NCBI GenBank assembly: GCA_050124795.1
Contig: JASFEO010000002.1
Span: forward strand, 1 to 64,000
Direction of reading: 5' to 3'
DNA length: 64,000 bases
DNA from: Candidatus Pacearchaeota archaeon
GTDB taxonomy: Archaea > Nanobdellota > Nanobdellia > Pacearchaeales > GW2011-AR1
Below the pieces are notes generated by a model. The model was not told the DNA's origin, did not search any database, and was given only the letters and a program-made list of their open reading frames with translations. The position numbers and the translations under genes were made by a program. This document shows positions 4,241 to 19,269 of this stretch, piece after piece. Each line of letters opens with the position of its first letter. The stretch's first letter is position 1.

Positions 4241-4536
4241 TTTATCATAATCCCATTTTTCAAAGCTTCGCTGACAATTGTGATTCCTTTTCTTAATTTA
4301 TTAAACTCCTTCGGAGTGTAGCACAAAAAATCAACTGGCAAATCCAATTCCCAAAAATCATACATTTTTGCCCCCCTCTCAAAAAAATTCATTCCTTCAA
4401 AATCTGAACTTACTATTATCAAATCAACATCGCTATCTTTGCCAAAATTTTCAGTTGCCCTGCTCCCAAATAAAATAATTTTCTCTATTTTTATCTCCTT
4501 ATTTAAGTCTAATAAAAATTTTTTTAATTCCTGCAT
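4237..4536 (-). CDS. Minimal nucleotidyltransferase (MNT) antitoxin
   Basis: ILFGSRA...DSDVDLIIVS motif; start overlaps the HEPN stop. Confidence 0.9.
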   Translation of the reverse strand: MQELKKFLLDLNKEIKIEKIILFGSRATENFGKDSDVDLIIVSSDFEGMNFFERGAKMYDFWELDLPVDFLCYTPKEFNKLRKGITIVSEALKNGIMIN

Positions 4537-4895
4537 TAAAGATTCTCTTTGCACCATTTGATTATTTCTCCGCAATAAATTAGAAATTCTTCTTCAAACT
4601 CTTCAACATCATCTGCTTTGATTATATCTGGGTATCGTGTATACTGATAGGCAGGGCTTAGTTTCTTGCAATATTCAATTACTCTCTCAGGTGCATTTAA
4701 TTTTTTAGCAAGAATAAATAAGTCATGAGTTTTCAATAACTCCCTGAATTTTTTGATATAAACTGCCTTCAAAGCTTTTTCTGCAGATTGCTGCATAAAG
4801 AAAAAACTCGCATTTGTTTTTCCTCCTTCAAGATTATATTTAGCAGTATCAAAATCTTCTTCTGCTTTTTCAAGCCATCTCTTAAAATCTTCCAT
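4536..4895 (-). CDS. HEPN domain toxin
   Basis: WLEKAEEDF, QQSAEKALKA, KTHDL and RYPD motifs. Confidence 0.9.
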   Translation of the reverse strand: MEDFKRWLEKAEEDFDTAKYNLEGGKTNASFFFMQQSAEKALKAVYIKKFRELLKTHDLFILAKKLNAPERVIEYCKKLSPAYQYTRYPDIIKADDVEEFEEEFLIYCGEIIKWCKENL

Positions 4896-4929
4896 AAAAT
4901 AATAACAATTTAGAAACTTTTAAATTTTC

Positions 4930-5406
4930 CTAATCACTTTTCTCAACCTTTTCTTTTTTCTCAACAACTTTTTCTTCCTTTGCCAAAGGCAAAATTATCT
5001 CTCCACCAGCCTTCTTAACTTTCTCAATTGCGGATTTTGAAGCTTCAAGTGCTTTAATCTTCAACTTCTGAGTAACTTCTCCTGTTCCTAAAATCTTGTA
5101 TTTACTTAAATCAAGAATTCCATTTTTTTCATATTTTTTCAAATTCAACTGAATGTCTCGCAAATTAATTCTTTGTCTTGTGTCTCTTTTTGTTCCTCTG
5201 CTTGTAATCCCTTGTTTACCAAAATACTTATGTCCATATAACTTGTTAATTAAAGTTTTTTTATGATCAGCACGTTTGCCACTTCCACTCATTCCAATTC
5301 CTCCTCTGTGACCTGAACCTTTTCGTTTCTTTCGAGCTCCGCCTCCGTGAGTTCCCATATTATGCCCATGCATTCGCGATGATTTTTTTCTTTTCTTTGT
5401 TTTCAT
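4930..5406 (-). CDS. rpl15: 50S ribosomal protein uL15
   Basis: HGGGARKKRKGSGHRGGIG; KILGTG; AIEKVKKAGG. Confidence 0.96.
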   Translation of the reverse strand: MKTKKRKKSSRMHGHNMGTHGGGARKKRKGSGHRGGIGMSGSGKRADHKKTLINKLYGHKYFGKQGITSRGTKRDTRQRINLRDIQLNLKKYEKNGILDLSKYKILGTGEVTQKLKIKALEASKSAIEKVKKAGGEIILPLAKEEKVVEKKEKVEKSD

Positions 5407-5771
5407 TTTAAATTTAATTTAGGATTTAATTTATTAATTTTTGTTTTAACAAATTCTAACTCAAGAGGATTTAGTTTAAACCCTTTAACTTCTGATGCCT
5501 CAATTCCCATTGGATAAGGGCAGTTATCACAATCATCCCAGTATGTAAACTCTAATTCTTTTTTTCTTTGTGAATAGATTATTTGTTGATCATCTTCACC
5601 CAGAACCAAGAATGAAAAGCCTTCTGGTTTAGTAAGTTTTTTCCATTCATTAGTTTGCAAGAGATTATATCCAATAAAAAAGCCATTTACTATTTTGGGT
5701 CTTTGAAATATTCCTTGTGGAGGCAACATAATTTCTTTTCTTTCTCCGATTCTTGGGGTATCAATTATCAT
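5403..5771 (-). CDS. Interleaved orphan ORF (L30/L15)
   Basis: Fills the junction: 1-nt gap and ATGA overlap. Confidence 0.75.
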   Translation of the reverse strand: MIIDTPRIGERKEIMLPPQGIFQRPKIVNGFFIGYNLLQTNEWKKLTKPEGFSFLVLGEDDQQIIYSQRKKELEFTYWDDCDNCPYPMGIEASEVKGFKLNPLELEFVKTKINKLNPKLNLK

Positions 5772-5772
5772 T

Positions 5773-6198
5773 TCAAATCATCCTCAAAATTAATTTATTT
5801 ATTTCTTCTTTATTATTTCCTAAAACCCCTTTATCAACGCCAAAGTGTTTCTTTGTGTCAATTCCTCCTCGTGCAGGATGCAATCTAAAAAAAGGCTTAA
5901 GATTTAATTCTTCATATTTCTTTCCTTTTTCTAAATCTTCAATAACTTTCTTTGCATCAATATCTTTTTTCTTGTTTAACTTTTGTCCTCGAGCTTCAAG
6001 CAGCTTCTCAAAAGTTTCATTGGTAATTTCACCAAATGCAACAAAATCCTGAACTTTTTTTATCATTCCCATTTGCACTTTTGTAGGATTACTAAAAACA
6101 ACACAAGAATATTTTCTTCGAAGTCTCAATCTGTCCAAAGTCTCAGCTACAGGTTGTTTAACTTTTACCATTCCATGAATTCTAATTACTGCAATCAT
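5773..6198 (-). CDS. rpl30: 50S ribosomal protein uL30
   Basis: IAVIRIHG; KPFFRLHPARGG. Confidence 0.96.
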   Translation of the reverse strand: MIAVIRIHGMVKVKQPVAETLDRLRLRRKYSCVVFSNPTKVQMGMIKKVQDFVAFGEITNETFEKLLEARGQKLNKKKDIDAKKVIEDLEKGKKYEELNLKPFFRLHPARGGIDTKKHFGVDKGVLGNNKEEINKLILRMI

Positions 6199-6569
6199 TG
6201 CGTTTGTCCTCCTCTTAAAATAGCTAAATTTTTTTTAGTTTCTCCTAAATCTTCTAATAAGCTAATAGATACTTTATTCGCAAGATTAATTGATTTTAGG
6301 TTTCTATATTCTGGAATTCCAAGAAATTCATTATTAAAAATATAAAAATCTGTTTCAGGATACTTCTTAATTAAATCCATAACCTCCAGTGCATTTTTTC
6401 TTACATAAGAAGGATTTACATTTAAAATAAAAATTCTTGAATCTGTTTTTTCTGGAAGTTTCAAATGTTCAACTACTTCATGACCTTTTTTTCTAGCAAA
6501 ATCTACAAAATAATCTGATGCATCTCCAAACAGATTTCCCCTATAGCAACTAAATCTTTCTACTATCAT
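6195..6569 (-). CDS. Interleaved orphan ORF (S5/L30)
   Basis: ATGA overlaps at both ends. Confidence 0.75.
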   Translation of the reverse strand: MIVERFSCYRGNLFGDASDYFVDFARKKGHEVVEHLKLPEKTDSRIFILNVNPSYVRKNALEVMDLIKKYPETDFYIFNNEFLGIPEYRNLKSINLANKVSISLLEDLGETKKNLAILRGGQTQ

Positions 6570-7396
6570 TTCCCAACACCCTCCATTCGATTTGTTTTTT
6601 TTAATGCTTCAATGCATGCTTTAACTAAATTAAAAGTTGTTTTCTTGTGTCCTGTTGTTCGAGAGTAAACATCTTTAATTCCTGCCAAAGTTAAAACTTT
6701 TTTTAATTCCCCTCCAACAACTAAACCAGTTCCTTGCGGTGCTGGAATTAATGTAACACTAACACTTCCTGCTTTGCCGGTTACTTTAAATGGAACAGAA
6801 TGTTTGTCCTTGCATGAACAATCAAAACCAGCGCAATCACGTGTTATTTTTATAATATTTAATTTTGCCTGCCTTGCTGCTTTGTCTCTTGCTGGCAAAG
6901 TTTCTTTTGCTCTTCCTGTCCCAATACCAACGTGACCATTCCCGTCACCAACAACAGCCATAGTTGAAAACGTCGGAACATTTCCTTCCTTGGTTTTTCT
7001 CTGAGTCTGCCTCCACGCTCTTCTCTTTCCTCCTCCAAACTTTCCTTTTGATTGTCCAATTGAAATCAAATCACTTTTTAAATTAAGAAGTGAATCAACA
7101 ATTTCAGACTCTAAAATTTTCTTCTTTGCACCAAGTATCTCATCAATATTCTTAATCTTATGATTTCTAACATCAGCTCCTAATTTAGTTTTAGGATTCC
7201 AGCGATTCAATGCCTCCTTTTCTTCTTCCTCGCGGCTAAGTCTTCTTTTAGGTTTTGAATCCCCATTAACCCTCTCTTCAGTTTCTTTCTTAACTTCTTC
7301 TAGCTCCTGCAATTCCTCTTCATCCAAAACTTCCTCAGGAACCTCAGCATATTCATCTTCAACTTTTTGCTTGTCTTCAATTTTTTCTTTTGTCAT
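6566..7396 (-). CDS. rps5: 30S ribosomal protein uS5
   Basis: WNPKTKLG; AVVGDGNGHVGIG; PAPQGTGLV. Confidence 0.96.
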   Translation of the reverse strand: MTKEKIEDKQKVEDEYAEVPEEVLDEEELQELEEVKKETEERVNGDSKPKRRLSREEEEKEALNRWNPKTKLGADVRNHKIKNIDEILGAKKKILESEIVDSLLNLKSDLISIGQSKGKFGGGKRRAWRQTQRKTKEGNVPTFSTMAVVGDGNGHVGIGTGRAKETLPARDKAARQAKLNIIKITRDCAGFDCSCKDKHSVPFKVTGKAGSVSVTLIPAPQGTGLVVGGELKKVLTLAGIKDVYSRTTGHKKTTFNLVKACIEALKKTNRMEGVGK

Positions 7397-7397
7397 T

Positions 7398-7676
7398 TTA
7401 ATTAGCTAACCCCCCATATTTTTTGCGCATTAAATCAGTTTCAATAGTCTTTTTTATAATTTTTATTTTCTTTACTCGCTCTTCTATTTTCCTCTTAAGA
7501 TAAGCTCTTCCACGTGTTTCTTTAGAATTAGCTAAAATATCAAGAGCTTCACGAACTTCATTTGCCAACCCCAATAATCCGAAGGCAATTCCCCTTTTTT
7601 TAACTAAATATTTTATCCTATCTTCATCGCCCCGAATAAATTCTGCTATCTCTCTACAATATCTTTCTGTTTCCAT
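7398..7676 (-). CDS. Interleaved orphan ORF (L18/S5)
   Basis: TAAAATG junctions on both sides. Confidence 0.75.
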   Translation of the reverse strand: METERYCREIAEFIRGDEDRIKYLVKKRGIAFGLLGLANEVREALDILANSKETRGRAYLKRKIEERVKKIKIIKKTIETDLMRKKYGGLAN

Positions 7677-7677
7677 T

Positions 7678-8166
7678 TTATTTTTTATCAATCTCCGTTT
7701 TAATTTTCATAACATCAATTTTCTCTTTTAAACTTTCTCCCATAATCCTTTCTTCCTCTGGAAAAGTTTTTTCTTGGGTTTTAATTTTTATTCCAGCATC
7801 GACAAGACCTTTCAGGAATGCATGCGGCTTTGTTTTGTGAGGAGTTCTCAGCATTCCAAAATCAACAATTGGCATTTCCAACTTTTTTGAAATAATCTCC
7901 TTACCGATTAAATATCCAGTTAAATAACTTGCAGGAATTGACTTTAAACTTCCTTTATTTTTTTCAGGCCATCCAAACTCCAATAAATTTTTCGACGTAA
8001 TTCCAATAATAACTTTGTCTTTTGCTTCATGGCTTTCAACATACTGCGCAATAATATATTTATTAGTTCGTCTAAAAACAATTCTCGGTTTCTCACTTTT
8101 AAGAAGTTTTATTCTCTTGCCATAATCTGTTTTATGCTGTTTTCTTCGTCGCTGTTGTGTTTTCAT
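7678..8166 (-). CDS. rpl18: 50S ribosomal protein uL18
   Basis: KTDYGKRIKLL; RIVFRRTNKYIIAQ; ASYLTG. Confidence 0.96.
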   Translation of the reverse strand: MKTQQRRRKQHKTDYGKRIKLLKSEKPRIVFRRTNKYIIAQYVESHEAKDKVIIGITSKNLLEFGWPEKNKGSLKSIPASYLTGYLIGKEIISKKLEMPIVDFGMLRTPHKTKPHAFLKGLVDAGIKIKTQEKTFPEEERIMGESLKEKIDVMKIKTEIDKK

Positions 8167-8200
8167 TTTAAATTTTTATTTGAAAATTCCAAAAGAATTT

Positions 8201-8608
8201 TCATTTCCTTAATCCTCCAATATATTCTTTCAAATGTGCCTTGCTTCTAAACTTTTTGTTTCTAATTCTCTTTCGAATTTCAGTAACTTCTTCAGGAGCA
8301 AGTTCTCCACGTTTTTTAAGTTCTGCAACATATCCTCTGAGCTTCCTCGTCATAATAACATAATCCTGCTTTCGAGTATTAACTTTTCTTCTAACTTTTC
8401 CAACTCCCCTTCTCCTCTTTCGCTTTTCAACTTTTTTCCGCCCTTTAACTTCACGAATTACAATTGCTCCGTCAGTTGCTAAATCTCTAATATCCTGTTT
8501 TGTCAAAGCTTCTTTAATTTCACTAAGTCGGGACTCAATAAAAGTAATTCTTGCTTTTCCAACTCCCAAAGTTTTAGCTGCTAATTCTTTTTTACTTGCG
8601 AGATTCAT
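8201..8608 (-). CDS. rpl19e: 50S ribosomal protein eL19
   Basis: LAAKTLGVGKARI; ALTKQDIRDL. Confidence 0.93.
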   Translation of the reverse strand: MNLASKKELAAKTLGVGKARITFIESRLSEIKEALTKQDIRDLATDGAIVIREVKGRKKVEKRKRRRGVGKVRRKVNTRKQDYVIMTRKLRGYVAELKKRGELAPEEVTEIRKRIRNKKFRSKAHLKEYIGGLRK

Positions 8609-8937
8609 ATTGAAGTTCCTCCTTCGTCGGAATTTAATTTTTTAGATAAACAATATTCTTTAGCTGTTTTAGTAGCAGGTATCTTAAGTTTTGCATTTTC
8701 AACTTTAATTAATTCTTTAAGGTCTTTTGAAATTTGGTAAATTCTCTTTCTGGTTTCATTATCCAAATTATCTTCCTGTAAAAATATTTGCAACTCTCCA
8801 TAAAATGGTTCATATGTAATTAATCTAGCTTCAACCTCATAAACCGAATTATGGAATCTGACTCCTCTGTCTGTTGTTCTTTCTTCTGCTTTCTGCCTGA
8901 AAAAATCTCTACCTAAATTAATTACATTTCCTTCCAT
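8605..8937 (-). CDS. Interleaved orphan ORF (L32e/L19e)
   Basis: Coupled at both ends; ends in SDEGGTSI. Confidence 0.75.
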   Translation of the reverse strand: MEGNVINLGRDFFRQKAEERTTDRGVRFHNSVYEVEARLITYEPFYGELQIFLQEDNLDNETRKRIYQISKDLKELIKVENAKLKIPATKTAKEYCLSKKLNSDEGGTSI

Positions 8938-8938
8938 T

Positions 8939-9460
8939 TTACTTTTTCCCCTCCTTAACTTCTTTATTTTCTTTTGATTCTTCCTTAGATTTCTTTTTTT
9001 CTTCTTTTGCTTTTTCCTTTTTTTCTTTCTTAGTCTCTATCTTTTTTTTATCTTCTTTGTTTTTTTGTTTTAACATTTTCTTTCTCTCTATTTTTTTAGT
9101 AAACTTCTTTGCATTTACATTTGCAATTTCTATTTTCTTTTTTTCTGCTTCTTTAATTATTTCCATTTTTTTCTTGTTTCCTACTTTGCCGATTATTGCA
9201 ATATTATTTTTTCCAATCTTTTCCAAATTTTTTAAGTTGTTTACAATAACCGGTTTCATATCTTTAATTTGTCCTCTAGCTTTTTCCTTATTTTTATAAC
9301 CCACACTAACAACTGCAGGATATCCACGTCGCTTTTCACGCATTTTATTGTCTCGCCCAGTTGGTCTTTTCCACTTTTGCTTTTTCTTTCTTCCTTTACC
9401 TAACTTTGAATATTTATCAACACTTCGTCGTAAAAAATTTGGTTTTTTCTTTTCAGCCAT
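8939..9460 (-). CDS. rpl32e: 50S ribosomal protein eL32 with Lys-rich tail
   Basis: WKRPTGRDNKMR; VSVGY. Confidence 0.95.
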   Translation of the reverse strand: MAEKKKPNFLRRSVDKYSKLGKGRKKKQKWKRPTGRDNKMREKRRGYPAVVSVGYKNKEKARGQIKDMKPVIVNNLKNLEKIGKNNIAIIGKVGNKKKMEIIKEAEKKKIEIANVNAKKFTKKIERKKMLKQKNKEDKKKIETKKEKKEKAKEEKKKSKEESKENKEVKEGKK

Positions 9461-10003
9461 TTATATTTCCCTCCCTGGTTTACTTGTTATAAAAATTCCA
9501 TCTTGGAAAATTCTTCTATCTCTGTTTTTAACTTTTGTTGCTTTTTCAAAATTAGCAGCAGTCTGCCCTGCAACTTCTTTATTTAACGACGTAATTGTGA
9601 TACCCTGCCCCTTAACATTAACTTCGGCCCCATTCACAATCTTTGCATGACGAGGAATTTTTTCCCCAAGAAAATTCTTAATCACAGCTTCATTATCTTT
9701 CAAATCAATTGTAATAGGAAAATGATTAAAGCAAATTTTCAACTTATACTCAAACTTATTCTGCACACCATTAATCATATTATGAATATGCGCATCAGTT
9801 GTATTGATTAACTTCTTCTCGCGCTTAGTTGACTTGTCATACCCAATAATAATTTTACCTTCTTTAACCTCAAAACGAAATCCTTCCATTTCAAACTCTC
9901 TTGAAAGTTCACCTTCACTTCCCTTTACTGTTAACACTCTTCCATCTATTTTAACTTCTACTCCCTCAGGAATTTCAATTTCTTTTATGATTTTTTGTTT
10001 CAT
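9461..10003 (-). CDS. rpl6: 50S ribosomal protein uL6
   Basis: IPEGVEV; HFPI; NFLGEK; DRRIFQDGIFI. Confidence 0.97.
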   Translation of the reverse strand: MKQKIIKEIEIPEGVEVKIDGRVLTVKGSEGELSREFEMEGFRFEVKEGKIIIGYDKSTKREKKLINTTDAHIHNMINGVQNKFEYKLKICFNHFPITIDLKDNEAVIKNFLGEKIPRHAKIVNGAEVNVKGQGITITSLNKEVAGQTAANFEKATKVKNRDRRIFQDGIFITSKPGREI

Positions 10004-10239
10004 TCTCTAATTGGGCAAAAATTTAATTTCATTTTTGTTGTTACATTTGACATTCCTTCATCCCATGAATTTATTTCTAATGGGCTAACAAGTTTTCTTG
10101 CACTTTGTTTTAATTGATAATAACTTCTTGTTAATTTTGAAAACTGTTCGCTAGAGATATAATATTCAGGAGTCATAACTAAATCATAAAAAGCTTCCTT
10201 AAATTCTTCCCATCCCAAAACTTTAATTTTTTCATCCAT
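10000..10239 (-). CDS. Interleaved orphan ORF (S8/L6)
   Basis: TAAAATG start junction, ATGA end junction. Confidence 0.7.
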   Translation of the reverse strand: MDEKIKVLGWEEFKEAFYDLVMTPEYYISSEQFSKLTRSYYQLKQSARKLVSPLEINSWDEGMSNVTTKMKLNFCPIRE

Positions 10240-10240
10240 T

Positions 10241-10621
10241 TTAATAAAAATAAGCAATCAAGCTTCCTCCGATTTTTTCTTCCTCAGCTTCTTTGTGAGT
10301 CATGAGACCTTTATTCGTCGATATAATCATTACACCAATATTTCGCGCAGGCAAATATCTACGCTTGTATCTTTCAATCATGTCAAACTTGCAACTGAAT
10401 CTTGGTTTTATAGCACGGCAATCAAAAAAGTCTCCAAGTGTAACTTCAATAGATTTTTCCTTTGCATCAATTTTATATTTTTTAACTGCGCCATGCTGCT
10501 TCATGATTTTCAAAACTTCAATAAAAACATTTGAAATTCTATTTATCTTTACAACTTCTTTCCTTGCCTTTTTGGCATTTCTCATCATATTTATTGCATC
10601 AGCAACTACATCGTGACTCAT
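10241..10621 (-). CDS. rps8: 30S ribosomal protein uS8
   Basis: AIKPRF; RYLPA; ISTNKGLMTH; GGSLIAYFY. Confidence 0.97.
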   Translation of the reverse strand: MSHDVVADAINMMRNAKKARKEVVKINRISNVFIEVLKIMKQHGAVKKYKIDAKEKSIEVTLGDFFDCRAIKPRFSCKFDMIERYKRRYLPARNIGVMIISTNKGLMTHKEAEEEKIGGSLIAYFY

Positions 10622-10818
10622 ATTGAACGTCCTCCTTCGTCGGAATAATTTCCAAATCTCGTTTTTTCACTTTTGTAAGTTTGTGTAGCCCAAAATATTT
10701 CTTTTGCTGATTTCTTAGAACTTTTTTCTAAATTTGAAAAATCTGGAACAAATTTTTCTCTTTCTCCAATAGGTTCTGTTACTCTTTCATAAATTGTTCT
10801 TTGCTCTGCATTTCTCAT
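10618..10818 (-). CDS. Interleaved orphan ORF (S14/S8), 66 aa
   Basis: Coupled at both ends; ends in YSDEGGRSI; resembles 12799-12999. Confidence 0.75.
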   Translation of the reverse strand: MRNAEQRTIYERVTEPIGEREKFVPDFSNLEKSSKKSAKEIFWATQTYKSEKTRFGNYSDEGGRSI

Positions 10819-10819
10819 T

Positions 10820-11050
10820 TTAACTATATTTTTTAAAGCCAATCTCTGTTGCGATTTCTCTAAAACAGTGTCGGCATAAATTTAATCCATATGAATTTAT
10901 CATTGCTCCAAATCTCCCGCATCTTTCACACTTTTTCGCAGCAATTCCAATCTTTCGCTCTTTCGGCTTGTTATGCTTCAAAAACTTCGCTTTCTTTTCT
11001 GGCTTTTTATTTAATTGTTTCAATATTTTTCTCCAATCACTTGCTGTCAT
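10820..11050 (-). CDS. rps14: 30S ribosomal protein uS14
   Basis: CERCG...YGLNLCRHCFRE...GFKKY. Confidence 0.97.
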   Translation of the reverse strand: MTASDWRKILKQLNKKPEKKAKFLKHNKPKERKIGIAAKKCERCGRFGAMINSYGLNLCRHCFREIATEIGFKKYS

Positions 11051-11397
11051 TTTTTTTGTCCCCCTTCGTCGGAAATTTTAATTGATTGCTTTTCTAAATT
11101 AGATAATATTAAATCTGCATCTGCAATAAATCTATCTGCACTTCTTTTAAAATAAGAATCTTTTGTTTCTCCTTTTGCAATACCCTTGTTGTAAGCTGCC
11201 GCCATAATAAATCTTGAAAATGCTTGAGGGTCTGTTGAATGAGCATATTTTAAAATTATTAATTTTGTAGCATCTGCACCAAGACTTCTAACAAAGTCTT
11301 TAATTTCTTGGTCTTCACCATTAGCTTCTACAATTTCTTCATAAATTTGGTTATACCATGCCATAATTGAATTTCCTGTTATTTCTGACGCTGTCAT
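11047..11397 (-). CDS. Interleaved orphan ORF (L5/S14)
   Basis: Flanked by an 11-bp direct repeat; ends in SDEGGQKK. Confidence 0.75.
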   Translation of the reverse strand: MTASEITGNSIMAWYNQIYEEIVEANGEDQEIKDFVRSLGADATKLIILKYAHSTDPQAFSRFIMAAAYNKGIAKGETKDSYFKRSADRFIADADLILSNLEKQSIKISDEGGQKK

Positions 11398-11398
11398 T

Positions 11399-11902
11399 TT
11401 ACACAAACTCCACTTGGAATTCACTTTCCATAAATTTAATTATTTCTTCCCTGCTTATTATTTGTTTTTTAGGGATTTTTCCCTTTTTGATTTTCCTTAA
11501 TTTTACACGCCGACCTGCCCTTTTAAAAACTACTGTCACATCAAATCCCCGAATACCAATATCTCTTCTGTATTCAATTCCGGGAATCTCAATATATTCT
11601 TTTATTCCAAATGAAAAATTATTTTCACTAATCTGCTTTTTTTTAATTTGATTGTCAACAGTTGCAAGCATTCTCTTTAATAATTCAGTTTTGCCTTTTC
11701 TTATTGTAACAACTGCTCCGATTTCAAGACCCGGCCGAATTCCAATTGTGGGAATCCTTTTTGTTGACTTCATTTTAGCAGGTTTTCTATTTGTCAAAAA
11801 TTCCAAAAGTTTGTAGCCTTTCTCCAAGTCATCGCCGATTCCGCCGACATTTAAAACTACTTTTTCAATTTTTATTTCTCTCATTTTATTTTGTTCTGCC
11901 AT
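11399..11902 (-). CDS. rpl5: 50S ribosomal protein uL5
   Basis: MREIKIEKVVLNVG; NFSFGIKEYIEIPG. Confidence 0.97.
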   Translation of the reverse strand: MAEQNKMREIKIEKVVLNVGGIGDDLEKGYKLLEFLTNRKPAKMKSTKRIPTIGIRPGLEIGAVVTIRKGKTELLKRMLATVDNQIKKKQISENNFSFGIKEYIEIPGIEYRRDIGIRGFDVTVVFKRAGRRVKLRKIKKGKIPKKQIISREEIIKFMESEFQVEFV

Positions 11903-11903
11903 T

Positions 11904-12149
11904 TTAATTTCGCATCTCCTTAAGATATTCATTTAATCGTGATTCATAAGCATTAGTCACAGTTTCTCCTATTCCATTTTCATTCATGCGGTCAATTAAT
12001 GATTCTATTCTTTCTTTATATTGCATTATTCGGGTTTTGCAATCAACACTATCAACTTTCTCAATCATTTCCTCAAGCAATGAATCAGCTTCTTTAATTA
12101 TTGGGATAATTTTTCTATTGTAATTTACTTTCCCGAATTCACAAATCAT
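11904..12149 (-). CDS. Interleaved orphan ORF (S4e/L5)
   Basis: ATGA and TAAAATG junctions. Confidence 0.7.
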   Translation of the reverse strand: MICEFGKVNYNRKIIPIIKEADSLLEEMIEKVDSVDCKTRIMQYKERIESLIDRMNENGIGETVTNAYESRLNEYLKEMRN

Positions 12150-12799
12150 TTTTCCACCACCATAATCTGTTTAATTAAAACATTAATATTGTCTTCACCA
12201 ACTGTTATGCTTGCCATCTTTCTCTCAATTTTAAGTTTTCTTAAAATTCCTTGTTTGCCTGCATGCTTTCCTGCAAAAATAAAAACTTCTTCTCCTTCTT
12301 TCATTGGCAACACCTTCTCAATCTTTTTATCCTTAAAACTAATCACAACACTATCCCCTGTTTTGCATTTTTCTGAACTTAACAAATTTCTTCCATCACT
12401 TAAATTCAACTGCGTTTTCTTTCCTTTCAAAGTTTTTTTATTAACAACTTTTGAAACTTTTTTCATTGCTTCTTTCTCACCAACTTCCTCTAAGTCAAAC
12501 TTCCCATATTTTGATAAAGTTATTTTGTAGTGTTTTTTTGCAGGAACAATTGTTATAACATCAAACAAAACTGCATTATTTTTTTCATCCTTGATTATCC
12601 TATTATTAAGTAAAACATTTTTCGCATTAATTGCCCTCTTGACTTCCTTTCTATTCTGAGCAATTTTTAACATGTCTCGCAAAATAACCAAAACCGGAAC
12701 TCCCTTTTCCAAGTTGCTGTTAGGTCGAACTACATACGCTGTTCCCTTTCTATTAATTGGCCAATTTTTTGGTGCAAGTTGACGTTTAAGATGTGCCAT
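12146..12799 (-). CDS. rps4e: 30S ribosomal protein eS4
   Basis: HLKRQLAPKNW; QLNLSDGRN; GKHAG. Confidence 0.97.
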   Translation of the reverse strand: MAHLKRQLAPKNWPINRKGTAYVVRPNSNLEKGVPVLVILRDMLKIAQNRKEVKRAINAKNVLLNNRIIKDEKNNAVLFDVITIVPAKKHYKITLSKYGKFDLEEVGEKEAMKKVSKVVNKKTLKGKKTQLNLSDGRNLLSSEKCKTGDSVVISFKDKKIEKVLPMKEGEEVFIFAGKHAGKQGILRKLKIERKMASITVGEDNINVLIKQIMVVEK

Positions 12800-12999
12800 T
12801 ATAAATTTCCTCCTCCGTCGGAATAACTTTTTTTAACTTTTCTATTTTCATGTTTTCCATACCATTCACTCCACTTTCCTGCCAAATCAATTCTTTTCAA
12901 TCCCTTAGAAGGTTCGGGACCAACATAATCTTCTCCGCCTTTTCCTTCATACATTGTTCTAACCTTTTCATAAATATTTTTTTGTTCTAGTGTTGTCAT
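12799..12999 (-). CDS. Interleaved orphan ORF (L24/S4e), 66 aa
   Basis: ATGA and TAATG junctions; ends in YSDGGGNL. Confidence 0.75.
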   Translation of the reverse strand: MTTLEQKNIYEKVRTMYEGKGGEDYVGPEPSKGLKRIDLAGKWSEWYGKHENRKVKKSYSDGGGNL

Positions 13000-13463
13000 T
13001 GTTTCTTCTCCTTAATTTTATCGTCTGAAACTTCCTTTTTAGGTGTTTTGCTTTTTGCTTTTTCAGTTTTTTTCTCTGTATTTTTTTCCTTGTTCATTTT
13101 CGCCATTCGCTTTTTGTCATCTAAATTTAATTCAATAATCTGCAGGTTTGAAGGCTGCTGCATTGCATTAACTTTTGAACCATCAAGTTTTTTCACCTGA
13201 ATATTCTCAACAGCAACTCTCGACTCCTTATACTTAACAATTGTAACTTTTCCTTTCTGCCCCTTAAACTTGCCGCGCATAATTTTCACAACATCGCCTT
13301 TCCTAACTGGGATATTTCTTCGCTCGTGTTTCTTTCTAAGTTCTTTACTCAAGTTCACACTAACGAATTTCTTTCTAATATTAAGTGGGGCATTTGCTCT
13401 ATACTTTCTTTGTTTTCTAGGTTGCTTACTTGCTTTCCATGATTTTGAAAATTTAGTTTTCAT
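12996..13463 (-). CDS. rpl24: 50S ribosomal protein uL24
   Basis: SKQPRKQRK; VRKGDVVKIMRG. Confidence 0.97.
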   Translation of the reverse strand: MKTKFSKSWKASKQPRKQRKYRANAPLNIRKKFVSVNLSKELRKKHERRNIPVRKGDVVKIMRGKFKGQKGKVTIVKYKESRVAVENIQVKKLDGSKVNAMQQPSNLQIIELNLDDKKRMAKMNKEKNTEKKTEKAKSKTPKKEVSDDKIKEKKQ

Positions 13464-13464
13464 T

Positions 13465-13695
13465 TTAATTTCTCATTCCTCCTTCCCACTCCCGAATTTC
13501 TTTATTAACAATTTCTGCTTCTATATCATAAGTTGAAGTATCAATACCTTCTTTTTTTGCAATAGCTGAAAATAACCTATAGAATCTCATTACTCCTTGG
13601 TTATATCGCGAATATCTTCTATCAAATTTAACTCTTTCCAACTGGAACTTTGCACGCCTTTCAAATTCTTCTTGAGTAAATATTCCTTTATCCAT
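13465..13695 (-). CDS. Interleaved orphan ORF (L14/L24)
   Basis: ATTAAAATG at both junctions. Confidence 0.7.
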   Translation of the reverse strand: MDKGIFTQEEFERRAKFQLERVKFDRRYSRYNQGVMRFYRLFSAIAKKEGIDTSTYDIEAEIVNKEIREWEGGMRN

Positions 13696-13696
13696 T

Positions 13697-14098
13697 TTAA
13701 TAAACAACTGAAGCAATCTTAGCCACACTTGGCCAGCGCTCCAATACCTCCCTTGCAATTGGTCCTTTGATCTGAGTAGCTTTTGGATTTCCCTTTCCAT
13801 CCTTTAAAATCGCAACTGCATTGTCTTCAAATGCAACTCTCTCACCATTCAATCTTCTGTATGCTTTTTTCTGCCTGATTATAACAGCGTCGAAAACCTT
13901 GCCTTTCATGTCAGGAACACCTTTTCTAATGCTCACTTTAACCCAATCAGCAACCTTTGCCTTCATCTGCCTTGTCTTTCTTCCTTTACCTTTCTTCACA
14001 CCAACAAGTTTCACAATCTTTGCTCCTGAATTATCTGCTGCAATCATAATTGCGCCTAAATTCAAACCTGCTGTTGTTCTTGCTGAAACTGCTTTCAT
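13697..14098 (-). CDS. rpl14: 50S ribosomal protein uL14
   Basis: ADNSGAK; FEDNA; IKGPIARE. Confidence 0.97.
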   Translation of the reverse strand: MKAVSARTTAGLNLGAIMIAADNSGAKIVKLVGVKKGKGRKTRQMKAKVADWVKVSIRKGVPDMKGKVFDAVIIRQKKAYRRLNGERVAFEDNAVAILKDGKGNPKATQIKGPIAREVLERWPSVAKIASVVY

Positions 14099-14457
14099 TT
14101 CTTTTCCTCCTTAACTTTTTCATTATTTATTTTTTCAATAACTGCAAAATGAATTATCTTTGACAATGGTCTGCATTCCTGAATTTTTACTCTGTCGCCG
14201 ACATTGATGTCTTTTCTCATGCAATCAGGAAGACGAGCATGAATCTTTGTTCTTGACTTTGAATATCTTTCATACTTTCTAACATAAACCATTCTCTCAA
14301 ATTCAATTGTGATTCTCTTGTCAAACTTTCTAATAACTTCTCCTTCAAAGACTCTGCCGCGAGTTTTCAAATTTCCATGAACATGGCAATTCTTGTCATT
14401 ACAAGTTTCACTAGTTTTTTCTTTTTCCATTTTTATTGTTTGTTTTTTCTTTGGCAT
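14095..14457 (-). CDS. rps17: 30S ribosomal protein uS17
   Basis: CNDKNCHVHG; KYERY; ECRPLSK. Confidence 0.97.
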   Translation of the reverse strand: MPKKKQTIKMEKEKTSETCNDKNCHVHGNLKTRGRVFEGEVIRKFDKRITIEFERMVYVRKYERYSKSRTKIHARLPDCMRKDINVGDRVKIQECRPLSKIIHFAVIEKINNEKVKEEKK

Positions 14458-14459
14458 TT

Positions 14460-14783
14460 TTAATCTTCCAATATCTCTCCATAAAAATCTATATCTGTCG
14501 GAATGCTTGGTCCGAAACCCCTCGTTATCCCATAAATGTATCTCAATTTAATTGTTCCATTTGCCATTGGCATTATAGCTTCTTTTTCAGTAGTTATGCG
14601 GTATGTAGGCTTTTGCCCTCTTTCAACAAGATAAATTATCTTACTCTTTTCAGGATGTTCATCATAATGATAAAGTCCACTCTGCCCAAAATAATTATCA
14701 TCCAAATCTAAAATATCTCCTTTCCGAAGACTTTCTAAATCTTTTTCATTCATTGGTCTTTTAATTTTATCTTGTAATTCCAT
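14460..14783 (-). CDS. Interleaved orphan ORF (SUI1/S17)
   Basis: Occupies the position where rnp1 (RNase P p29) usually lies; no resemblance to it seen. Confidence 0.7.
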   Translation of the reverse strand: MELQDKIKRPMNEKDLESLRKGDILDLDDNYFGQSGLYHYDEHPEKSKIIYLVERGQKPTYRITTEKEAIMPMANGTIKLRYIYGITRGFGPSIPTDIDFYGEILED

Positions 14784-14890
14784 CTTACTCTCTACCTCCA
14801 GCTAATTCTGCTTTTTCCATTTTTCCTACTCTTGCGTCTGTTTTTTTCATTTTCTTGTTTCTTTCCTCTTCGTTTGTGTGTTTTTAGATT

Positions 14891-15190
14891 TTATTCTGAG
14901 ATTGAGTCTTCGTCAAAACCAAGTTTGATCAAAGAAGCTTTTATCTTCTTTGTGTGATCTCCCTGGAGTTCGACTATCCCATCCTTGCCAGTTCCTCCGC
15001 AAGCAAACTCATTCTTGAGTTGCTTTGCAATTCTTCTGACATCAATGCCAGTCTCGAATCCGCTTACAATAGTAACGATCTTGCCGTATCTTTTCCTGTC
15101 GGTCGTTACCTTTATCCTTTGCGAACTTTTCACAATCTGTTCACACACACAGGCCGCCTCTGGCAGCCCACATTTTGGACATATTTCCAT
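14891..15190 (-). CDS. sui1: Translation initiation factor SUI1/aIF1
   Basis: CPKCGLP; RYGKIVT; ACGGT; IVELQGDH. Confidence 0.95.
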   Translation of the reverse strand: MEICPKCGLPEAACVCEQIVKSSQRIKVTTDRKRYGKIVTIVSGFETGIDVRRIAKQLKNEFACGGTGKDGIVELQGDHTKKIKASLIKLGFDEDSISE

Positions 15191-15193
15191 AGT

Positions 15194-15391
15194 TTATTTC
15201 TTATTCAACTCCCCTAATTTACTTAAGGTGTTGAATGTGTGTATTCTCGCAATCATTTTTTTGATTTCCTTTATCTTTGAACTTCCGCCCTTAGCTGCAT
15301 TCGCCTTTGCCTTTACTAATTCCATTTTCAATTCCTTTAACTTCTTTTCCCTTTCCTTTTCACTTAATTTTTTAATTTCTTTTGATTTCAT
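15194..15391 (-). CDS. rpl29: 50S ribosomal protein uL29
   Basis: KLKELKMEL; IKEIKKMIARIHT. Confidence 0.93.
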   Translation of the reverse strand: MKSKEIKKLSEKEREKKLKELKMELVKAKANAAKGGSSKIKEIKKMIARIHTFNTLSKLGELNKK

Positions 15392-15636
15392 TTTATGGTT
15401 TCTCCGTAGACTTGTTTTTCAATTGAATTTAATCTTCTTAGTAATTTTTGTTTTGTTGTAATTCTTGCAGCACCCCATGCACCTCTTGAAGTTAAATCTT
15501 CAGTATAACTCCTAATTCTCCCAACAACAGTGATTGCATGTGTAGGATTTCCCTCTCTAATAGCTGTTTTAACATCTCCTCTTAGATAGGGGATTTGCCC
15601 CAGTTTTTCAATTGTTCTATCTAAAATTGTTTTCAT
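15388..15636 (-). CDS. Interleaved orphan ORF (S3/L29)
   Basis: ATGA overlaps at both ends. Confidence 0.72.
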   Translation of the reverse strand: MKTILDRTIEKLGQIPYLRGDVKTAIREGNPTHAITVVGRIRSYTEDLTSRGAWGAARITTKQKLLRRLNSIEKQVYGETIK

Positions 15637-16397
15637 TCTCCATCCTCCATCTCATTTACTTCTTCGTCGCTATTTTCCTCAACCAAAATTTTTTCAGGAA
15701 TCAAGTCCTTTTTATCCTCGTCTTTCTTAGTTATTTTTTTCTTGGAAGTTTTTGCTAAAACATTTTCTATACTCCCCGCATTTTTCTTTAACTCTTTCAA
15801 AAGTTCTTCAGTAATTACAATCTTGTCTTTTAATACTGCAGTCGGTGACAATATACTAACTTTGATTCCAACTGTTCCAGGTTTTGTCTCAGCCCTTGCC
15901 TGTGCTCTGTCAACCACCTTTGCAGAATCCCCAGTTTTCTTTAAATAACCTTGAGCAAATCTCCATGGCTTAGCTCTTGCGCCTGGCAATTTTCCATTAA
16001 GCCTAATTTCAACTCCCAAAGCACCTGCATTAATTATTCTCTGCAAAGTTCTATAAGCAGTAACCTTAAACCTAATCGGACCAAACCTCTCAAGACTCAA
16101 AGCAATCTCATCAGCCATAATCTGCGCATCAAATTCAGGCTTTTTGATTTCATCAATTTCAATATGAAGATTTTCTAATTTGAATTGTCTTCGAAGCAAA
16201 TTTGTCAATTCCTCAATCTTCTCGCCCTTCCGACCAATCACAAGACCTGGCTTATGCGTTGAAACAATTATCTTCTCACCAACAGGCGTGTACTGAATTT
16301 TAACTCTGCTAACCTTCCCCTTTCCAAGATTTTTCTTAATCATTTCACGAACTGCAAATTCCTGCTTCTTAAAATTAACAACTTCTTTTTCTTCCAT
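15633..16397 (-). CDS. rps3: 30S ribosomal protein uS3
   Basis: KPGLVIGRKG; AGALGVEI; GYLKKTG. Confidence 0.97.
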   Translation of the reverse strand: MEEKEVVNFKKQEFAVREMIKKNLGKGKVSRVKIQYTPVGEKIIVSTHKPGLVIGRKGEKIEELTNLLRRQFKLENLHIEIDEIKKPEFDAQIMADEIALSLERFGPIRFKVTAYRTLQRIINAGALGVEIRLNGKLPGARAKPWRFAQGYLKKTGDSAKVVDRAQARAETKPGTVGIKVSILSPTAVLKDKIVITEELLKELKKNAGSIENVLAKTSKKKITKKDEDKKDLIPEKILVEENSDEEVNEMEDGE

Positions 16398-16717
16398 TAT
16401 AATTTAACTCCTGCTGAATTTAATATTCCTAGTAATTTTGATTTTTTTTCTTTAGATACACATTCTAATGTTTCTGCTGTTAAAAAATCAATAGCAAATG
16501 AAGAAATATCTTTATGGGTAATTGTTCTATCTTCTTTTTGGGTTATCCATCTGTCATCCGCAAGCGCGCACATTTTTTCTCCGCTAAATTCAAAATAAAA
16601 AAGATGTTTTTCTCCAACTTGCCCACGATATTCAGTATTTTCAATTACACTTTCTCTAGGATATTCTTGTAAAGGGTATTTTTCTCCAACCCTTAATAAT
16701 AATTTTTTCTCCGTCAT
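16397..16717 (-). CDS. Interleaved orphan ORF (L22/S3)
   Basis: ATGA and TAATG overlaps. Confidence 0.75.
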   Translation of the reverse strand: MTEKKLLLRVGEKYPLQEYPRESVIENTEYRGQVGEKHLFYFEFSGEKMCALADDRWITQKEDRTITHKDISSFAIDFLTAETLECVSKEKKSKLLGILNSAGVKL

Positions 16718-17352
16718 TTTTTCTTCTCCATTTTATTTTTAGTTTTTGATTTTTTCTTTTTTATCATTTTTTTCTCAGTTGCAACAATTTTAACATGAGT
16801 TCTTTTTCTTCTGACACTTCCAAATCGACCAAACGGCCTCTCTCCAATATTTGCAACAGCCTCGGTGATTATCGCCTTCTCAATTTCATTGTAAACTGCA
16901 TTTCCTGCTAAACTCTTAAGCATTACTAAAAATTCCTTTGTTGCCTTAACTGGATATTTCCCAGCGCCCGAAGCAACCTTGCCCTTGCCTTTTTTGTGCG
17001 CATATTCGCCTTTCATTGGAACATGTTTTTTCTGCATCAAGACTTCATTTAAGTCCCTTGTTGCCTTCTCAATTGTTTTATTCTTAATAAACTTGCAAAT
17101 CGCAGCAGCATACTTTGTTGAAATATGTAAATTCTTCATATCAACAAATGCTGAATGCTGTTTAACTTTTGGTTTCTTAACAATTGGCTTTTTATGTTTC
17201 TCTTCCTTTTTCTCCTCGACATTTTCTTTCCTTTCTGTTTTCTCATCTTTCTTAACTTTTGTCTCTTTTGGAGTTTCAACTTTTTGTTTTACACTTGCCT
17301 TTTCTGTTACTTTCTTTTCAGTTTTTGTTGGTGAATATTGTTTTTCTGTCAT
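16714..17352 (-). CDS. rpl22: 50S ribosomal protein uL22 with charged N-terminal extension
   Basis: ISTKYAAAICKFIK; GKYPVKA; RTHVKIV. Confidence 0.95.
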   Translation of the reverse strand: MTEKQYSPTKTEKKVTEKASVKQKVETPKETKVKKDEKTERKENVEEKKEEKHKKPIVKKPKVKQHSAFVDMKNLHISTKYAAAICKFIKNKTIEKATRDLNEVLMQKKHVPMKGEYAHKKGKGKVASGAGKYPVKATKEFLVMLKSLAGNAVYNEIEKAIITEAVANIGERPFGRFGSVRRKRTHVKIVATEKKMIKKKKSKTKNKMEKKK

Positions 17353-17353
17353 T

Positions 17354-17671: not shown

Positions 17672-17672
17672 T

Positions 17673-18074: not shown

Positions 18075-18075
18075 T

Positions 18076-18405: not shown

Positions 18406-18407
18406 GA

Positions 18408-19268: not shown

Positions 19269-19269
19269 T

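What the first reader, a model, noticed from the sequence alone, without database searches (positions are those of the whole stretch)
8605..12825. Shared 3'-end motif TTCCGACG(A/G)AGG(A/G)GG in four inserts
Seen on the minus strand at 8618-8633, 10631-10646, 11060-11074 and 12809-12825, always just before the downstream r-protein start, and translated as SD(E/G)GG. The 29-nt ends at 8605-8633 and 10618-10646 match at 27/29 (ATTCCGACGAAGGAGGA..TTCAATATGA) although I see no similarity elsewhere between those two ORFs. GGAGG is a Shine-Dalgarno-like site, but the upstream TTCCGACG is not explained by 16S pairing. Inference: a portable cassette end, either a recombination site or a re-initiation module, that supplies the next gene's ribosome-binding site.
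Basis: partly seen in the sequence, partly recalled or inferred. Interest (0 to 1): 0.78.

Follow-up and report, generated by a model that had tools for sequence, protein, structure and literature searches.

The report
Shared gene-end motif in ribosomal operon
Four small orphan genes wedged between ribosomal-protein genes of a tiny DPANN archaeon end in the same 15 to 29 bases, which carry the next gene's ribosome-binding site plus an extra conserved stretch that probably folds back on it.

Summary
TTCCGACGRAGGRGG occurs four times in the window where none is expected. Each copy lies in the last 10 codons of an orphan ORF and ends exactly 9 nt before the ATG of S4e, S14, S8 or L19e.

GGRGG is the Shine-Dalgarno site, since the 16S rRNA ends in CCTCCT. 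The upstream TTCCGACG is conserved as nucleotides, not only as peptide. All four copies use TCC-GAC, which makes up 1.9% of Ser-Asp codon pairs in this genome.

The four ORFs also share a short N-terminal peptide motif found in no other ORF of the genome. They are therefore probably diverged paralogs that multiplied inside the operon. This evidence is modest, because leave-one-out profiles fail to recover the omitted member.

TTCC can pair with the SD, and predicted SD masking is higher at these four junctions than at the other strong SDs of the operon (p=0.0045).

Unexpectedly, the same 15-18-mer forms a hairpin arm in an attC-like repeat. This repeat has 23 copies, lies in cassette-like arrays and sits beside a XerA/integron-type recombinase gene. 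The motif also occurs in non-coding repeats of four other genera. No attC-like element lies in the operon.

Verdict: a coupling junction inherited by paralogs. The 'portable cassette end' reading is not shown, and it is not excluded.

The parts
12809..12823 (-). Motif copy TTCCGACGGAGGAGG in the last codons of insert i05, 9 nt before the S4e ATG
11060..11074 (-). Motif copy TTCCGACGAAGGGGG in the last codons of insert i07, 9 nt before the S14 ATG
10631..10645 (-). Motif copy TTCCGACGAAGGAGG in the last codons of insert i08, 9 nt before the S8 ATG
8618..8632 (-). Motif copy TTCCGACGAAGGAGG in the last codons of insert i10, 9 nt before the L19e ATG
12799..12999 (-). Insert i05, 66-aa orphan ORF between L24 and S4e. 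It ends YSDGGGNL and its TAA overlaps the S4e ATG.
11047..11397 (-). Insert i07, 116-aa orphan ORF between L5 and S14. It ends ISDEGGQKK with an ATGA overlap. Its first 8 nt after the ATG equal those of S14, giving an 11-nt direct repeat AAAATGACAGC.
10618..10818 (-). Insert i08, 66-aa orphan ORF between S14 and S8. It ends YSDEGGRSI with an ATGA overlap.
8605..8937 (-). Insert i10, 110-aa orphan ORF between L32e and L19e. It ends NSDEGGTSI with an ATGA overlap.
12931..12975 (-). N-terminal peptide motif IYEKVRTMYEGKGGE of i05
   Evidence: coordinates computed
11314..11346 (-). N-terminal peptide motif IYEEIVEANGE of i07
   Evidence: coordinates computed
10762..10794 (-). N-terminal peptide motif IYERVTEPIGE of i08
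   Evidence: coordinates computed
8794..8844 (-). N-terminal peptide motif VYEVEARLITYEPFYGE of i10
   Evidence: coordinates computed
12146..12799 (-). Ribosomal protein S4e gene, downstream of i05
10820..11050 (-). Ribosomal protein S14 gene, downstream of i07
10241..10621 (-). Ribosomal protein S8 gene, downstream of i08
8201..8608 (-). Ribosomal protein L19e gene, downstream of i10

Best explanation
The four ORFs are probably diverged members of one lineage-specific family of small proteins of 66-116 aa. They share an N-terminal [IV]YE...E[PGA]xxG[EG] motif and a C-terminal SD(E/G)GG. The family appears to have multiplied inside the ribosomal-protein operon.

Their last ~10 codons serve a second purpose as the re-initiation region of the next, essential gene. 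GGRGG pairs with the 16S 3' end (CCUCC) at a fixed 9-nt distance from the ATG, and the insert's stop codon overlaps that ATG (ATGA or TAATG).

The upstream UUCC is complementary to the SD (GGAG or GGAA). It is predicted to fold back on the SD, so the SD would be masked until a ribosome translating the insert opens it. That would tie translation of the r-protein gene to translation of the insert.

The block carries several constraints at once: peptide, SD, masking stem and spacing. It therefore stayed identical at the nucleotide level, rare codons included, while the rest of the paralogs diverged beyond easy recognition.

Shown: the motif, its spacing, the 16S complementarity, the DNA-level identity and the orphan status. 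Inferred: the paralogy (modest support), the masking hairpin (prediction only) and the coupling.
For: SD role:
- The 16S rRNA ends in GGATCACCTCCT.
- Spacing to the ATG is 9 nt at all four junctions. Genome-wide, 23 of 138 SD-bearing starts have a 9-nt spacing, so the chance that all four do is 8e-4.
- Stop and start overlap at all four.
- Intragenic SDs at overlapping gene pairs, and coupling by termination-reinitiation, are documented in archaea (PMC6728339, passages read).

DNA-level constraint:
- TCC is 5% of Ser codons and GAC is 25% of Asp codons.
- TCCGAC is 1.9% of 895 Ser-Asp codon pairs, yet 4 of 4 copies use it.
- No synonymous variant of SD[EG]GG exists anywhere in the genome.
- The N-terminal motif, in contrast, shows synonymous differences: GAA/GAG, CCT/CCA and GGA/GGT.

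Paralogy:
- i05-i08 is the best of 78 insert pairs once the last 10 aa are removed (z=4.0). i07-i08 is third (z=2.8).
- MAFFT finds 11 invariant columns across the four.
- The regex [IV]YE.{1,9}E[PGA].{1,2}G[EG] hits 4 of 2229 ORFs of at least 50 aa, and these are exactly the four. The regex was written after seeing the alignment.
- The best shared ungapped 8-mer, with C-termini removed, scores 106 against a null of 68.5 +/- 11.6, empirical p=0.015.
- Parallel cases exist. Inserts in another genus (G008) share C-terminal ends among themselves. In this operon, the i01 3' end resembles an internal region of i02, and the i04 3' end resembles an internal region of i09.

Masking:
- The minimum-energy fold pairs UUCC with the GGRG of the SD in 3 of the 4 short (40-nt) folds. 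The fourth, i10, folds differently.
- Predicted SD pairing probability is 0.44-0.79 at the four junctions. The 13 other 5-nt SDs of the operon have a mean of 0.26, and only L22 reaches 0.70. Mann-Whitney p=0.0045.
Against: - Leave-one-out profile HMMs with the C-terminal 10 aa removed retrieve the omitted member in 0 of 4 cases.
- i10 shows no significant pairwise similarity to the other three (z from -0.17 to 0.99).
- The N-terminal regex was defined after seeing the alignment.
- The masking stem has only 3-4 base pairs (-3 to -6.5 kcal/mol). It shows no covariation, and its test was chosen post hoc.
- The loop bases GACG are invariant and neither the SD nor the stem explains them.
- The same 15-mer occurs where it cannot act as a ribosome-binding site. 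It is a hairpin arm of an attC-like repeat in this genome and in G156, and it lies in other non-coding repeats in G186, G260 and G292. This points to a property of the sequence beyond this operon.
- No expression or ribosome data exist.
Confidence: 0.5

Rival explanations
1. Portable cassette end. The block is a remnant of the 3' recombination site of integron-type gene cassettes. Small ORFs would have entered the operon as cassettes carrying an attC-like site. The site decayed, and only the hairpin arm that happened to contain an SD was kept.
For: - The genome holds 23 copies of a 79-130-nt Y-shaped element. Its closing stem covaries: 8 of 13 pairs show compensatory changes.
- The copies lie in same-orientation arrays spaced 0.8-2.7 kb apart, with small ORFs between them.
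- One array abuts a tyrosine recombinase gene that scores 183 bits on NF040815 'XerA/integron integrase' (cut-off 220; the query was cut at 242 of 260 aa) and 158 bits on TIGR02249 (cut-off 265).
- Integrons with attC arrays are reported in Nanoarchaeota MAGs (PMC9668308, passages read).
- Hairpin 1 of one element type is TTTTCC-GACGGAGGA-GGAAAA.
- The i05 end matches that element at 23 of 24 positions with one gap, including the family-invariant AAGTT flank, E=1.2e-4.
- The same hairpin sits in an element of another genus, G156.
- Like an attC, the block sits at the 3' end of the ORF.
Against: - An HMM of the whole element finds nothing at E<1 in window 1-24000 or in the operons of 20 relatives. 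A 5'-arm HMM finds nothing better than E=0.24.
- In the element the hairpin lies about 60 nt from the 3' end, not 9 nt.
- Only i05 keeps the flanks.
- In 80 further relatives, none of 47 inserts has CCGACG in its last 45 nt.
- Direct repeats of a live recombination site inside an essential operon would delete essential genes.
- The attC-like status of the elements is itself untested, because no IntegronFinder or HattCI run was possible.
- The arrays lie on other contigs of a MAG with 4% estimated contamination.
Confidence: 0.2
2. Binding site for a trans-acting factor, either a protein or an RNA. The factor would recognise the hairpin CC-GACGRAGGA-GG in r-protein mRNA junctions and in non-coding repeats, and would regulate or co-ordinate translation.
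For: - The loop sequence is invariant in four mRNA junctions. It also sits at or near the apex of a hairpin or inverted repeat in four kinds of non-coding repeat element across five genera: G000, G156, G186/G260 and G292.
- The stems flanking the loop differ between elements (TTTTCC/GGAAAA against ATTCC/GGAAT) while the loop is constant.
- In the order-wide scan, 10 of 400 other genomes hold the 15-mer, against 1 for the reversed control.
Against: - No candidate factor was found.
- CsrA homologs occur only on a phage-like contig with a muramoyl-alanine amidase-like ORF (named from recall), which is probably contamination.
- A K-turn or K-loop does not fit, judged by inspection against a recalled consensus.
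- Two of the four operon copies keep only 3 base pairs of the stem.
- Several hits in other genomes lie in coding sequence and look like chance.
Confidence: 0.1
3. Homogenisation without function. Gene conversion or recent copying of the 3' ends between junctions keeps them alike, and TTCCGACG is a passenger.
For: - i08 and i10 match at 32 of 36 positions at their ends, while their bodies are unalignable.
- The DNA similarity runs upstream of the block through a 2-nt gap, so it does not keep the reading frame.
Against: - A tract of 15-36 nt with no flanking homology is short for conversion.
- The four copies differ in the 9-nt spacer but never in the 8 bases TTCCGACG.
- This reading does not explain the same 15-mer in other genera.
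Confidence: 0.12

Closest known systems
Intragenic Shine-Dalgarno sites at overlapping gene pairs, with translational coupling by termination-reinitiation (Huber et al. 2019, PMC6728339; passages read)
   Same: The SD lies inside the 3' end of the upstream ORF. Stop and start overlap as ATGA or TAATG. The genes are co-directed in an operon. That paper also raises local RNA structure as a way to prevent de novo initiation.
   Different: Here an extra 8-nt block upstream of the SD is invariant in four junctions and is shared with non-coding repeats. The upstream ORFs are orphans inserted between r-protein genes, not conserved operon partners. Coupling was not measured.
Integron gene cassettes with a 3' attC site, including archaeal integrons (Ghaly et al. 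2022, PMC9668308; passages read)
   Same: A small ORF is followed at its 3' end by a shared structured sequence. The same genome holds attC-like arrays and an integron/XerA-type recombinase gene. The block equals one hairpin arm of such an element.
   Different: The operon inserts lack the R and L boxes and the closing stem. They carry only 15-29 nt, have no flanking second site, and lie in an essential operon rather than at an attI or attC site.
Lineage-specific small-protein (ORFan) families expanded by local duplication
   Same: No homolog was found outside the genome for 3 of 3 members searched. Short shared motifs occur at both ends. The members neighbour one another, and the coding signature is normal.
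   Different: The best-conserved part is conserved as DNA with rare codons, not as protein.

Membership tests
Shine-Dalgarno / termination-reinitiation junction | Complementarity of the motif to the 3' end of the organism's own 16S rRNA | tested here: met
   The 16S rRNA ends in CCTCCT. AGGAGG or GGGGG is present in all four copies.
Shine-Dalgarno / termination-reinitiation junction | SD 5-10 nt upstream of the start codon, with stop and start overlapping or within a few nt | tested here: met
   Spacing is 9 nt in 4 of 4. Three junctions have an ATGA overlap and one has TAATG.
Shine-Dalgarno / termination-reinitiation junction | Translation of the downstream gene depends on translation of the upstream ORF | not testable with these tools
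   This needs a reporter assay or ribosome profiling.
SD-masking hairpin | A stem that pairs the SD with an upstream complementary stretch and is more stable than expected | tested here: inconclusive
   UUCC:GGRG forms a 4-bp stem in 3 of the 4 short folds. SD pairing probability is higher than at 13 other SDs, p=0.0045. There is no covariation, the energies are weak, and the test was post hoc.
Integron attC site (for the four operon copies) | Paired R''/R' and L''/L' boxes forming a closing stem around a variable arm | tested here: not met
   The element HMM and the 5'-arm HMM find nothing significant in the operon.
Integron attC site (for the 23 repeat elements elsewhere in the genome) | Folded imperfect palindrome with AAC...GTT ends, same-orientation arrays less than 4 kb apart, each following an ORF, near an IntI gene | tested here: inconclusive
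   The structure, covariation and arrays fit. The recombinase scores below the curated cut-offs. No IntegronFinder or HattCI run was possible. The RYYYAAC and GTTRRRY consensus sequences are recalled from memory.
Paralogous protein family (the four ORFs) | Significant similarity outside the shared C-terminal block | tested here: inconclusive
   For: i05-i08 z=4.0; 4 of 2229 ORFs; p=0.015. Against: (0 of 4 recovered by leave-one-out HMM). i10 shows no significant pairwise similarity.
Known RNA family (Rfam) | Match to a curated covariance model | tested here: not met
   No match at E<=1 in three loci that hold the repeat unit. The operon itself was not scanned against Rfam.
CsrA-type GGA-hairpin regulation | A CsrA protein encoded by the organism | tested here: inconclusive
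   Two PF02599 matches lie only on contig C8, within a phage-like region of 28% GC. This contig is probably not from the archaeon.

The most novel reading that the evidence does not exclude
The block is a mobile nucleic-acid module, the SD-bearing hairpin arm of attC-like recombination sites of a DPANN integron-type system. It travels with small orphan genes as they colonise junctions of the ribosomal-protein operon. It lets them insert without polarity, because it brings a ribosome-binding site and a coupling hairpin for the next essential gene. The most conserved operon of the cell would then be a landing pad for cassette-like genes.
Probability: 0.15. Interest if true: 0.85.

Novelty: new variant of a known kind. 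Interest (0 to 1): 0.55.

Why it matters
Ribosomal-protein operons are among the most conserved gene orders known. Here 17 of 22 junctions hold orphan ORFs. The shared 3' block shows how such genes can sit in an essential, translationally coupled operon without breaking it, because each provides the downstream gene's initiation region.

If the four ORFs are paralogs, the block records intra-operon gene duplication, with the junction as the only part under strong constraint.

If instead the block derives from the attC-like elements of the same genome, it would link integron-type cassette traffic to gene gain inside core operons of DPANN archaea. These archaea carry a large share of genes of unknown function.

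In either case the invariant TTCCGACG is a testable candidate for a translation-control element beyond the Shine-Dalgarno sequence in archaea.

Tried and rejected
- Chance: rejected.
- Peptide-only conservation: rejected by codon statistics. No synonymous variants exist in the genome.
- Extended pairing with 16S rRNA: only one 6-mer complement (GACGAA) exists in 1440 nt, about what chance gives.
- General SD context: positions upstream of 138 SDs are A/T-rich with C at 14% or less. No other gene start has CCGACG.
- K-turn or K-loop for L7Ae: rejected by inspection against a recalled consensus. No loop would be left between the tandem G.A pairs, and the R positions fall on the critical bases. 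No tool was used.
- CsrA: homologs occur only on a phage-like contig.
- Rfam: nothing at E<=1 on three loci holding the repeat unit.
- attC-like remnants in the operon: none. An apparent AACAT...AAGTT stretch upstream of the i05 block did not score.
- Homologs of i08, i10 and i07 in 5.8 billion proteins of near length: only the proteins themselves. i05 was not searched there, and longer or shorter forms were not searched.
- Paralogs elsewhere in the genome by tblastn: none convincing, best E=0.008.
- A weak i05 hit on contig C24 turned out to lie in an unrelated long ORF.
- Pfam: 0 of 17 inserts reach a family cut-off.
- Leave-one-out HMMs: 0 of 4 recovered.
- Expression: no RNA holder is listed for the stretch.
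- Circular or excised forms: the only holder run is kept as contigs. One contig covers 4900-21700 with 0 differences. Three low-depth joints (depth 2.3-4.0, sides 21-24 nt) fall in Lys-rich low-complexity sequence and were disregarded. Raw reads were not available.
- Literature: three searches returned no listed title that describes orphan ORFs between r-protein genes in DPANN archaea (one search was on integrons). Only the search listings were seen.
- The metagenome-contig scan, structure prediction, complex prediction, the protein atlas and the search of protein representatives were not used.

Full report
**Setting.** The window is contig C2:1-64000 of a 1.06-Mb, 38-contig genome with 32% GC, 90% completeness and 4% contamination. 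Its closest relatives by S8 protein (67-79% identity) carry record titles such as Candidatus Pacearchaeota, Woesearchaeota or Nanoarchaeota archaeon, so this is a DPANN archaeon.

On the minus strand lies the large ribosomal-protein operon, from L3 (start at 21602) to L15 (ending at 4930), followed by SecY. Ten of its genes and SUI1 were confirmed with Pfam. The others were named from their sequences by recall.

Seventeen of the 22 junctions between L3 and L15 hold a small ORF of 54-124 aa. None of the 17 reaches a Pfam cut-off. All junctions are tight: ATGA, TAATG or TAA-A-ATG. The inserts have a normal coding signature, with frame-0 log-odds of 0.34-0.57, similar to the r-protein genes. Their GC3 is lower (0.11-0.23).

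An independent Logan contig of the only run that holds this DNA covers 4900-21700 without a single difference. That run may be the source of the assembly.

**Observation.** TTCCGACGRAGGRGG occurs at 8618-8632, 10631-10645, 11060-11074 and 12809-12823, all on the minus strand. None of 100 shuffles gave a match. Each copy lies in the last 10 codons of an insert, here called i10, i08, i07 and i05. Each is read as S-D-(E/G)-G-G and ends 9 nt before the ATG of L19e, S8, S14 or S4e.

The i08 and i10 ends match at 27 of 29. With a 2-nt gap they match at 32 of 36, E=7e-7. The genome holds 8 copies of the pattern and none of the reversed control. With up to 2 mismatches, only one further site appears. 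Of 1822 crude ORF starts, only these four have CCGACG followed by an SD.

**What GGRGG is.** The 16S rRNA ends in GGATCACCTCCT, so AGGAGG is the Shine-Dalgarno sequence. Many other genes and inserts in the operon, and inserts in relatives, also end in ..GG + 2-4 residues, because GGAGG is read as Gly-Gly. The E/G-G-G part of the peptide is therefore a by-product of an SD placed inside the upstream ORF. This arrangement is documented for overlapping gene pairs and termination-reinitiation in archaea and bacteria (PMC6728339, passages read).

**What TTCCGACG is not.**
- It does not pair with 16S rRNA. Only one 6-mer complement exists in 1440 nt.
- It is not a general SD context.
- It is not explained by peptide conservation. 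TCC is the rarest Ser codon (5%, or 2.8% before GA), GAC is 20-25% of Asp codons, and TCCGAC is 1.9% of 895 Ser-Asp pairs. All four copies nevertheless use it, and (0.019)^3 is about 7e-6 given the first copy.
- No synonymous version of SD[EG]GG exists in the genome.

**Are the four ORFs paralogs?** Evidence for:
- With the last 10 aa removed, i05-i08 is the best of 78 insert pairs (z=4.0). i07-i08 is third (z=2.8).
- MAFFT aligns all four with 11 invariant columns, which include an N-terminal [IV]YE...E[PGA]xxG[EG].
- That regex, written after seeing the alignment, hits 4 of 2229 ORFs of at least 50 aa, and these are exactly the four. A looser 5-residue version hits 17, including the four.
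- A motif-free test of the best shared ungapped 8-mer gives 106 against 68.5 +/- 11.6, p=0.015.
- The N-terminal motif shows synonymous variation (GAA/GAG, CCT/CCA, GGA/GGT), as ordinary protein-level conservation does.

Evidence against:
- Leave-one-out HMMs recover the omitted member in 0 of 4 trials.
- i10 has no significant pairwise match.

I take paralogy as likely, at about 0.65.

Similar patterns support duplication inside operons. In G008, four inserts share C-terminal ends. In this operon, the i01 3' end matches an internal region of i02, the neighbouring insert across S3, and the i04 3' end matches an internal stretch of i09. i07 and i08 flank S14. i07 begins with the same 8 nt after the ATG as S14, giving an 11-nt direct repeat.

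**A possible role for TTCC.** UUCC is complementary to GGAG or GGAA. RNAfold pairs UUCC with the GGRG of the SD in 3 of the 4 short (40-nt) folds, at -3.2 to -6.5 kcal/mol. The i10 fold differs. In 80-nt windows the SD pairing probability is 0.44, 0.58, 0.70 and 0.79 at the four junctions. The 13 other 5-nt SDs of the operon have a mean of 0.26, and only L22 reaches 0.70 (Mann-Whitney p=0.0045).

An SD masked until the upstream ORF is translated is a known way to enforce coupling. The 2019 paper raises local structure for this purpose. The stem is weak, it does not covary, and the test was chosen after the fact. The invariant loop bases GACG remain unexplained.

**The unexpected link.** The other four genomic copies belong to a 373-nt unit. 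It is present as two perfect tandem copies at C3:114-862 and at the ends of contigs C23 and C30.

The start of the unit is one member of a family of 23 Y-shaped elements of 79-130 nt. Their layout is AACAT - closing stem - AAGTT - hairpin 1 - ATTTGG - hairpin 2 - closing stem - TGTTA. The closing stem covaries, with 8 of 13 pairs showing compensatory changes.

The elements stand in same-orientation arrays 0.8-2.7 kb apart, with small ORFs between them. The tandem units abut a tyrosine recombinase gene that is closest to the 'XerA/integron integrase' model but scores below its cut-off. This resembles the integron or CALIN arrays reported from archaeal MAGs, including Nanoarchaeota (PMC9668308, passages read). 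I could not run the standard attC detectors.

In the unit, hairpin 1 is TTTTCC-GACGGAGGA-GGAAAA, which is the motif. The i05 end matches it at 23 of 24 positions with one gap, including the AAGTT flank that is invariant in the family, E=1.2e-4.

Scans of relatives gave the following. The two samples overlap.
- Family: 5 of 200 other genomes hold the 15-mer, and 1 holds the reversed control.
- Order: 10 of 400 other genomes hold it, and 1 holds the control.

The contexts of those hits are:
- G156: hairpin 1 of an attC-like element.
- G186 and G260: a shared 21-mer forming ATTCC...GGAAT.
- G292: three copies at the centre of an inverted-repeat element.
- G084: upstream of a 187-aa ORF.
- G120, G134, G239, G421, G432: in or probably in coding sequence.

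None of these hits lies at an r-protein-operon insert. Element HMMs find nothing in the operon of this genome or of 20 relatives. The block is therefore shared with recombination-type repeats, but the inserts are not recognisable cassettes.

**The wider pattern.** In 20 relatives of the family, inserts occur sporadically and at different junctions. Several genomes have none, and G008 has about ten. In 80 further species, 31 have at least one insert of 120 nt or more in four junctions: L5>S14 9 of 80, S14>S8 15 of 80, S8>L6 17 of 78 and L6>L32e 6 of 76. None of these carries CCGACG. Some insert families recur across species. i03 has a relative at a different junction in G005 (E=4e-5 in a small database). 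i07, i08 and i10 have no homolog in 5.8 billion proteins.

**Verdict.** The block is best read as the re-initiation junction (SD, spacing and a probable masking stem) of a small paralogous orphan family. Overlapping constraints keep it identical at DNA level. Confidence is 0.5.

The cassette-end reading keeps about 0.2, because of the exact match to an attC-like hairpin arm. A trans-factor site keeps about 0.1, and passive homogenisation about 0.1.

No expression data exist.

Noticed in passing
window 4930-21602, minus strand: Seventeen of 22 junctions of the L3-L15 ribosomal-protein operon hold orphan ORFs of 54-124 aa. All are tightly coupled (ATGA, TAATG or TAA-A-ATG), all are Pfam-negative, and all have a normal coding signature and lower GC3 than the r-protein genes. 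Relatives carry such inserts sporadically at different junctions: 31 of 80 species have at least one in four junctions. Three literature searches returned no listed title describing this.
   Followed up: partly
G000 contigs C3:114-862, C5:25956-32425, C23, C24, C29, C30, C31, C34: There are 23 copies of a 79-130-nt Y-shaped element with covarying stems, in same-orientation arrays with small ORFs between them. They include two perfect 373-nt tandem ORF-less units next to a XerA/integron-type tyrosine recombinase gene (C3:922-1704). This looks like an archaeal integron or CALIN. Several NYN/LabA-like ORFs (named from recall) lie in the arrays.
   Followed up: partly
window 4237-4895, minus strand: A HEPN and nucleotidyltransferase gene pair (Pfam PF05168, PF01909), of toxin-antitoxin type, sits between L15 and SecY.
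   Followed up: partly
window 608-1725, plus strand: A reverse transcriptase (PF00078) is split into two ORFs at a Ser/Leu-repeat stretch. Its type (group II, retron or DGR) was not determined.
   Followed up: no
G000:C8:18600-34000: A phage-like region of 28% GC holds a muramoyl-alanine amidase-like ORF, RecT/YqaJ-like ORFs (named from recall) and two CsrA homologs above the Pfam cut-off. It is probably a bacterial phage contig mis-binned into the MAG.
   Followed up: partly
window 14460-14783, minus strand; L047 (G005): Insert i03 (SUI1>S17) has a relative inside a 179-aa insert at a different junction (L24>S4e) in another genus (blastp E=4e-5 in a 73-sequence database). The same insert family therefore occupies different junctions in different genomes.
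   Followed up: partly
L096, L113, L118, L134, L162 (S14>S8 junction): A recurring insert family begins MET(E/K)..IKKVN.LEE and ends ..GGQN or ..GESK at the S14>S8 junction in up to five species. The match is clear in L096, L113 and L118 and weaker in L134 and L162, judged by eye without an alignment. Some inserts are thus conserved genes rather than junk.
   Followed up: no
window 11387-11397 and 11040-11050, minus strand: An 11-nt direct repeat AAAATGACAGC flanks insert i07. Its first four codons (MTAS) equal those of S14. This is consistent with an insertion or duplication whose breakpoint lies just inside S14.
   Followed up: partly
L084, L089, L090 (G292): Three copies of an inverted-repeat, MITE-like element carry the 15-mer at their centre. 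G186 and G260 share a 21-mer, ATTCCGACGAAGGAGGAATCT, in non-coding sequence.
   Followed up: no
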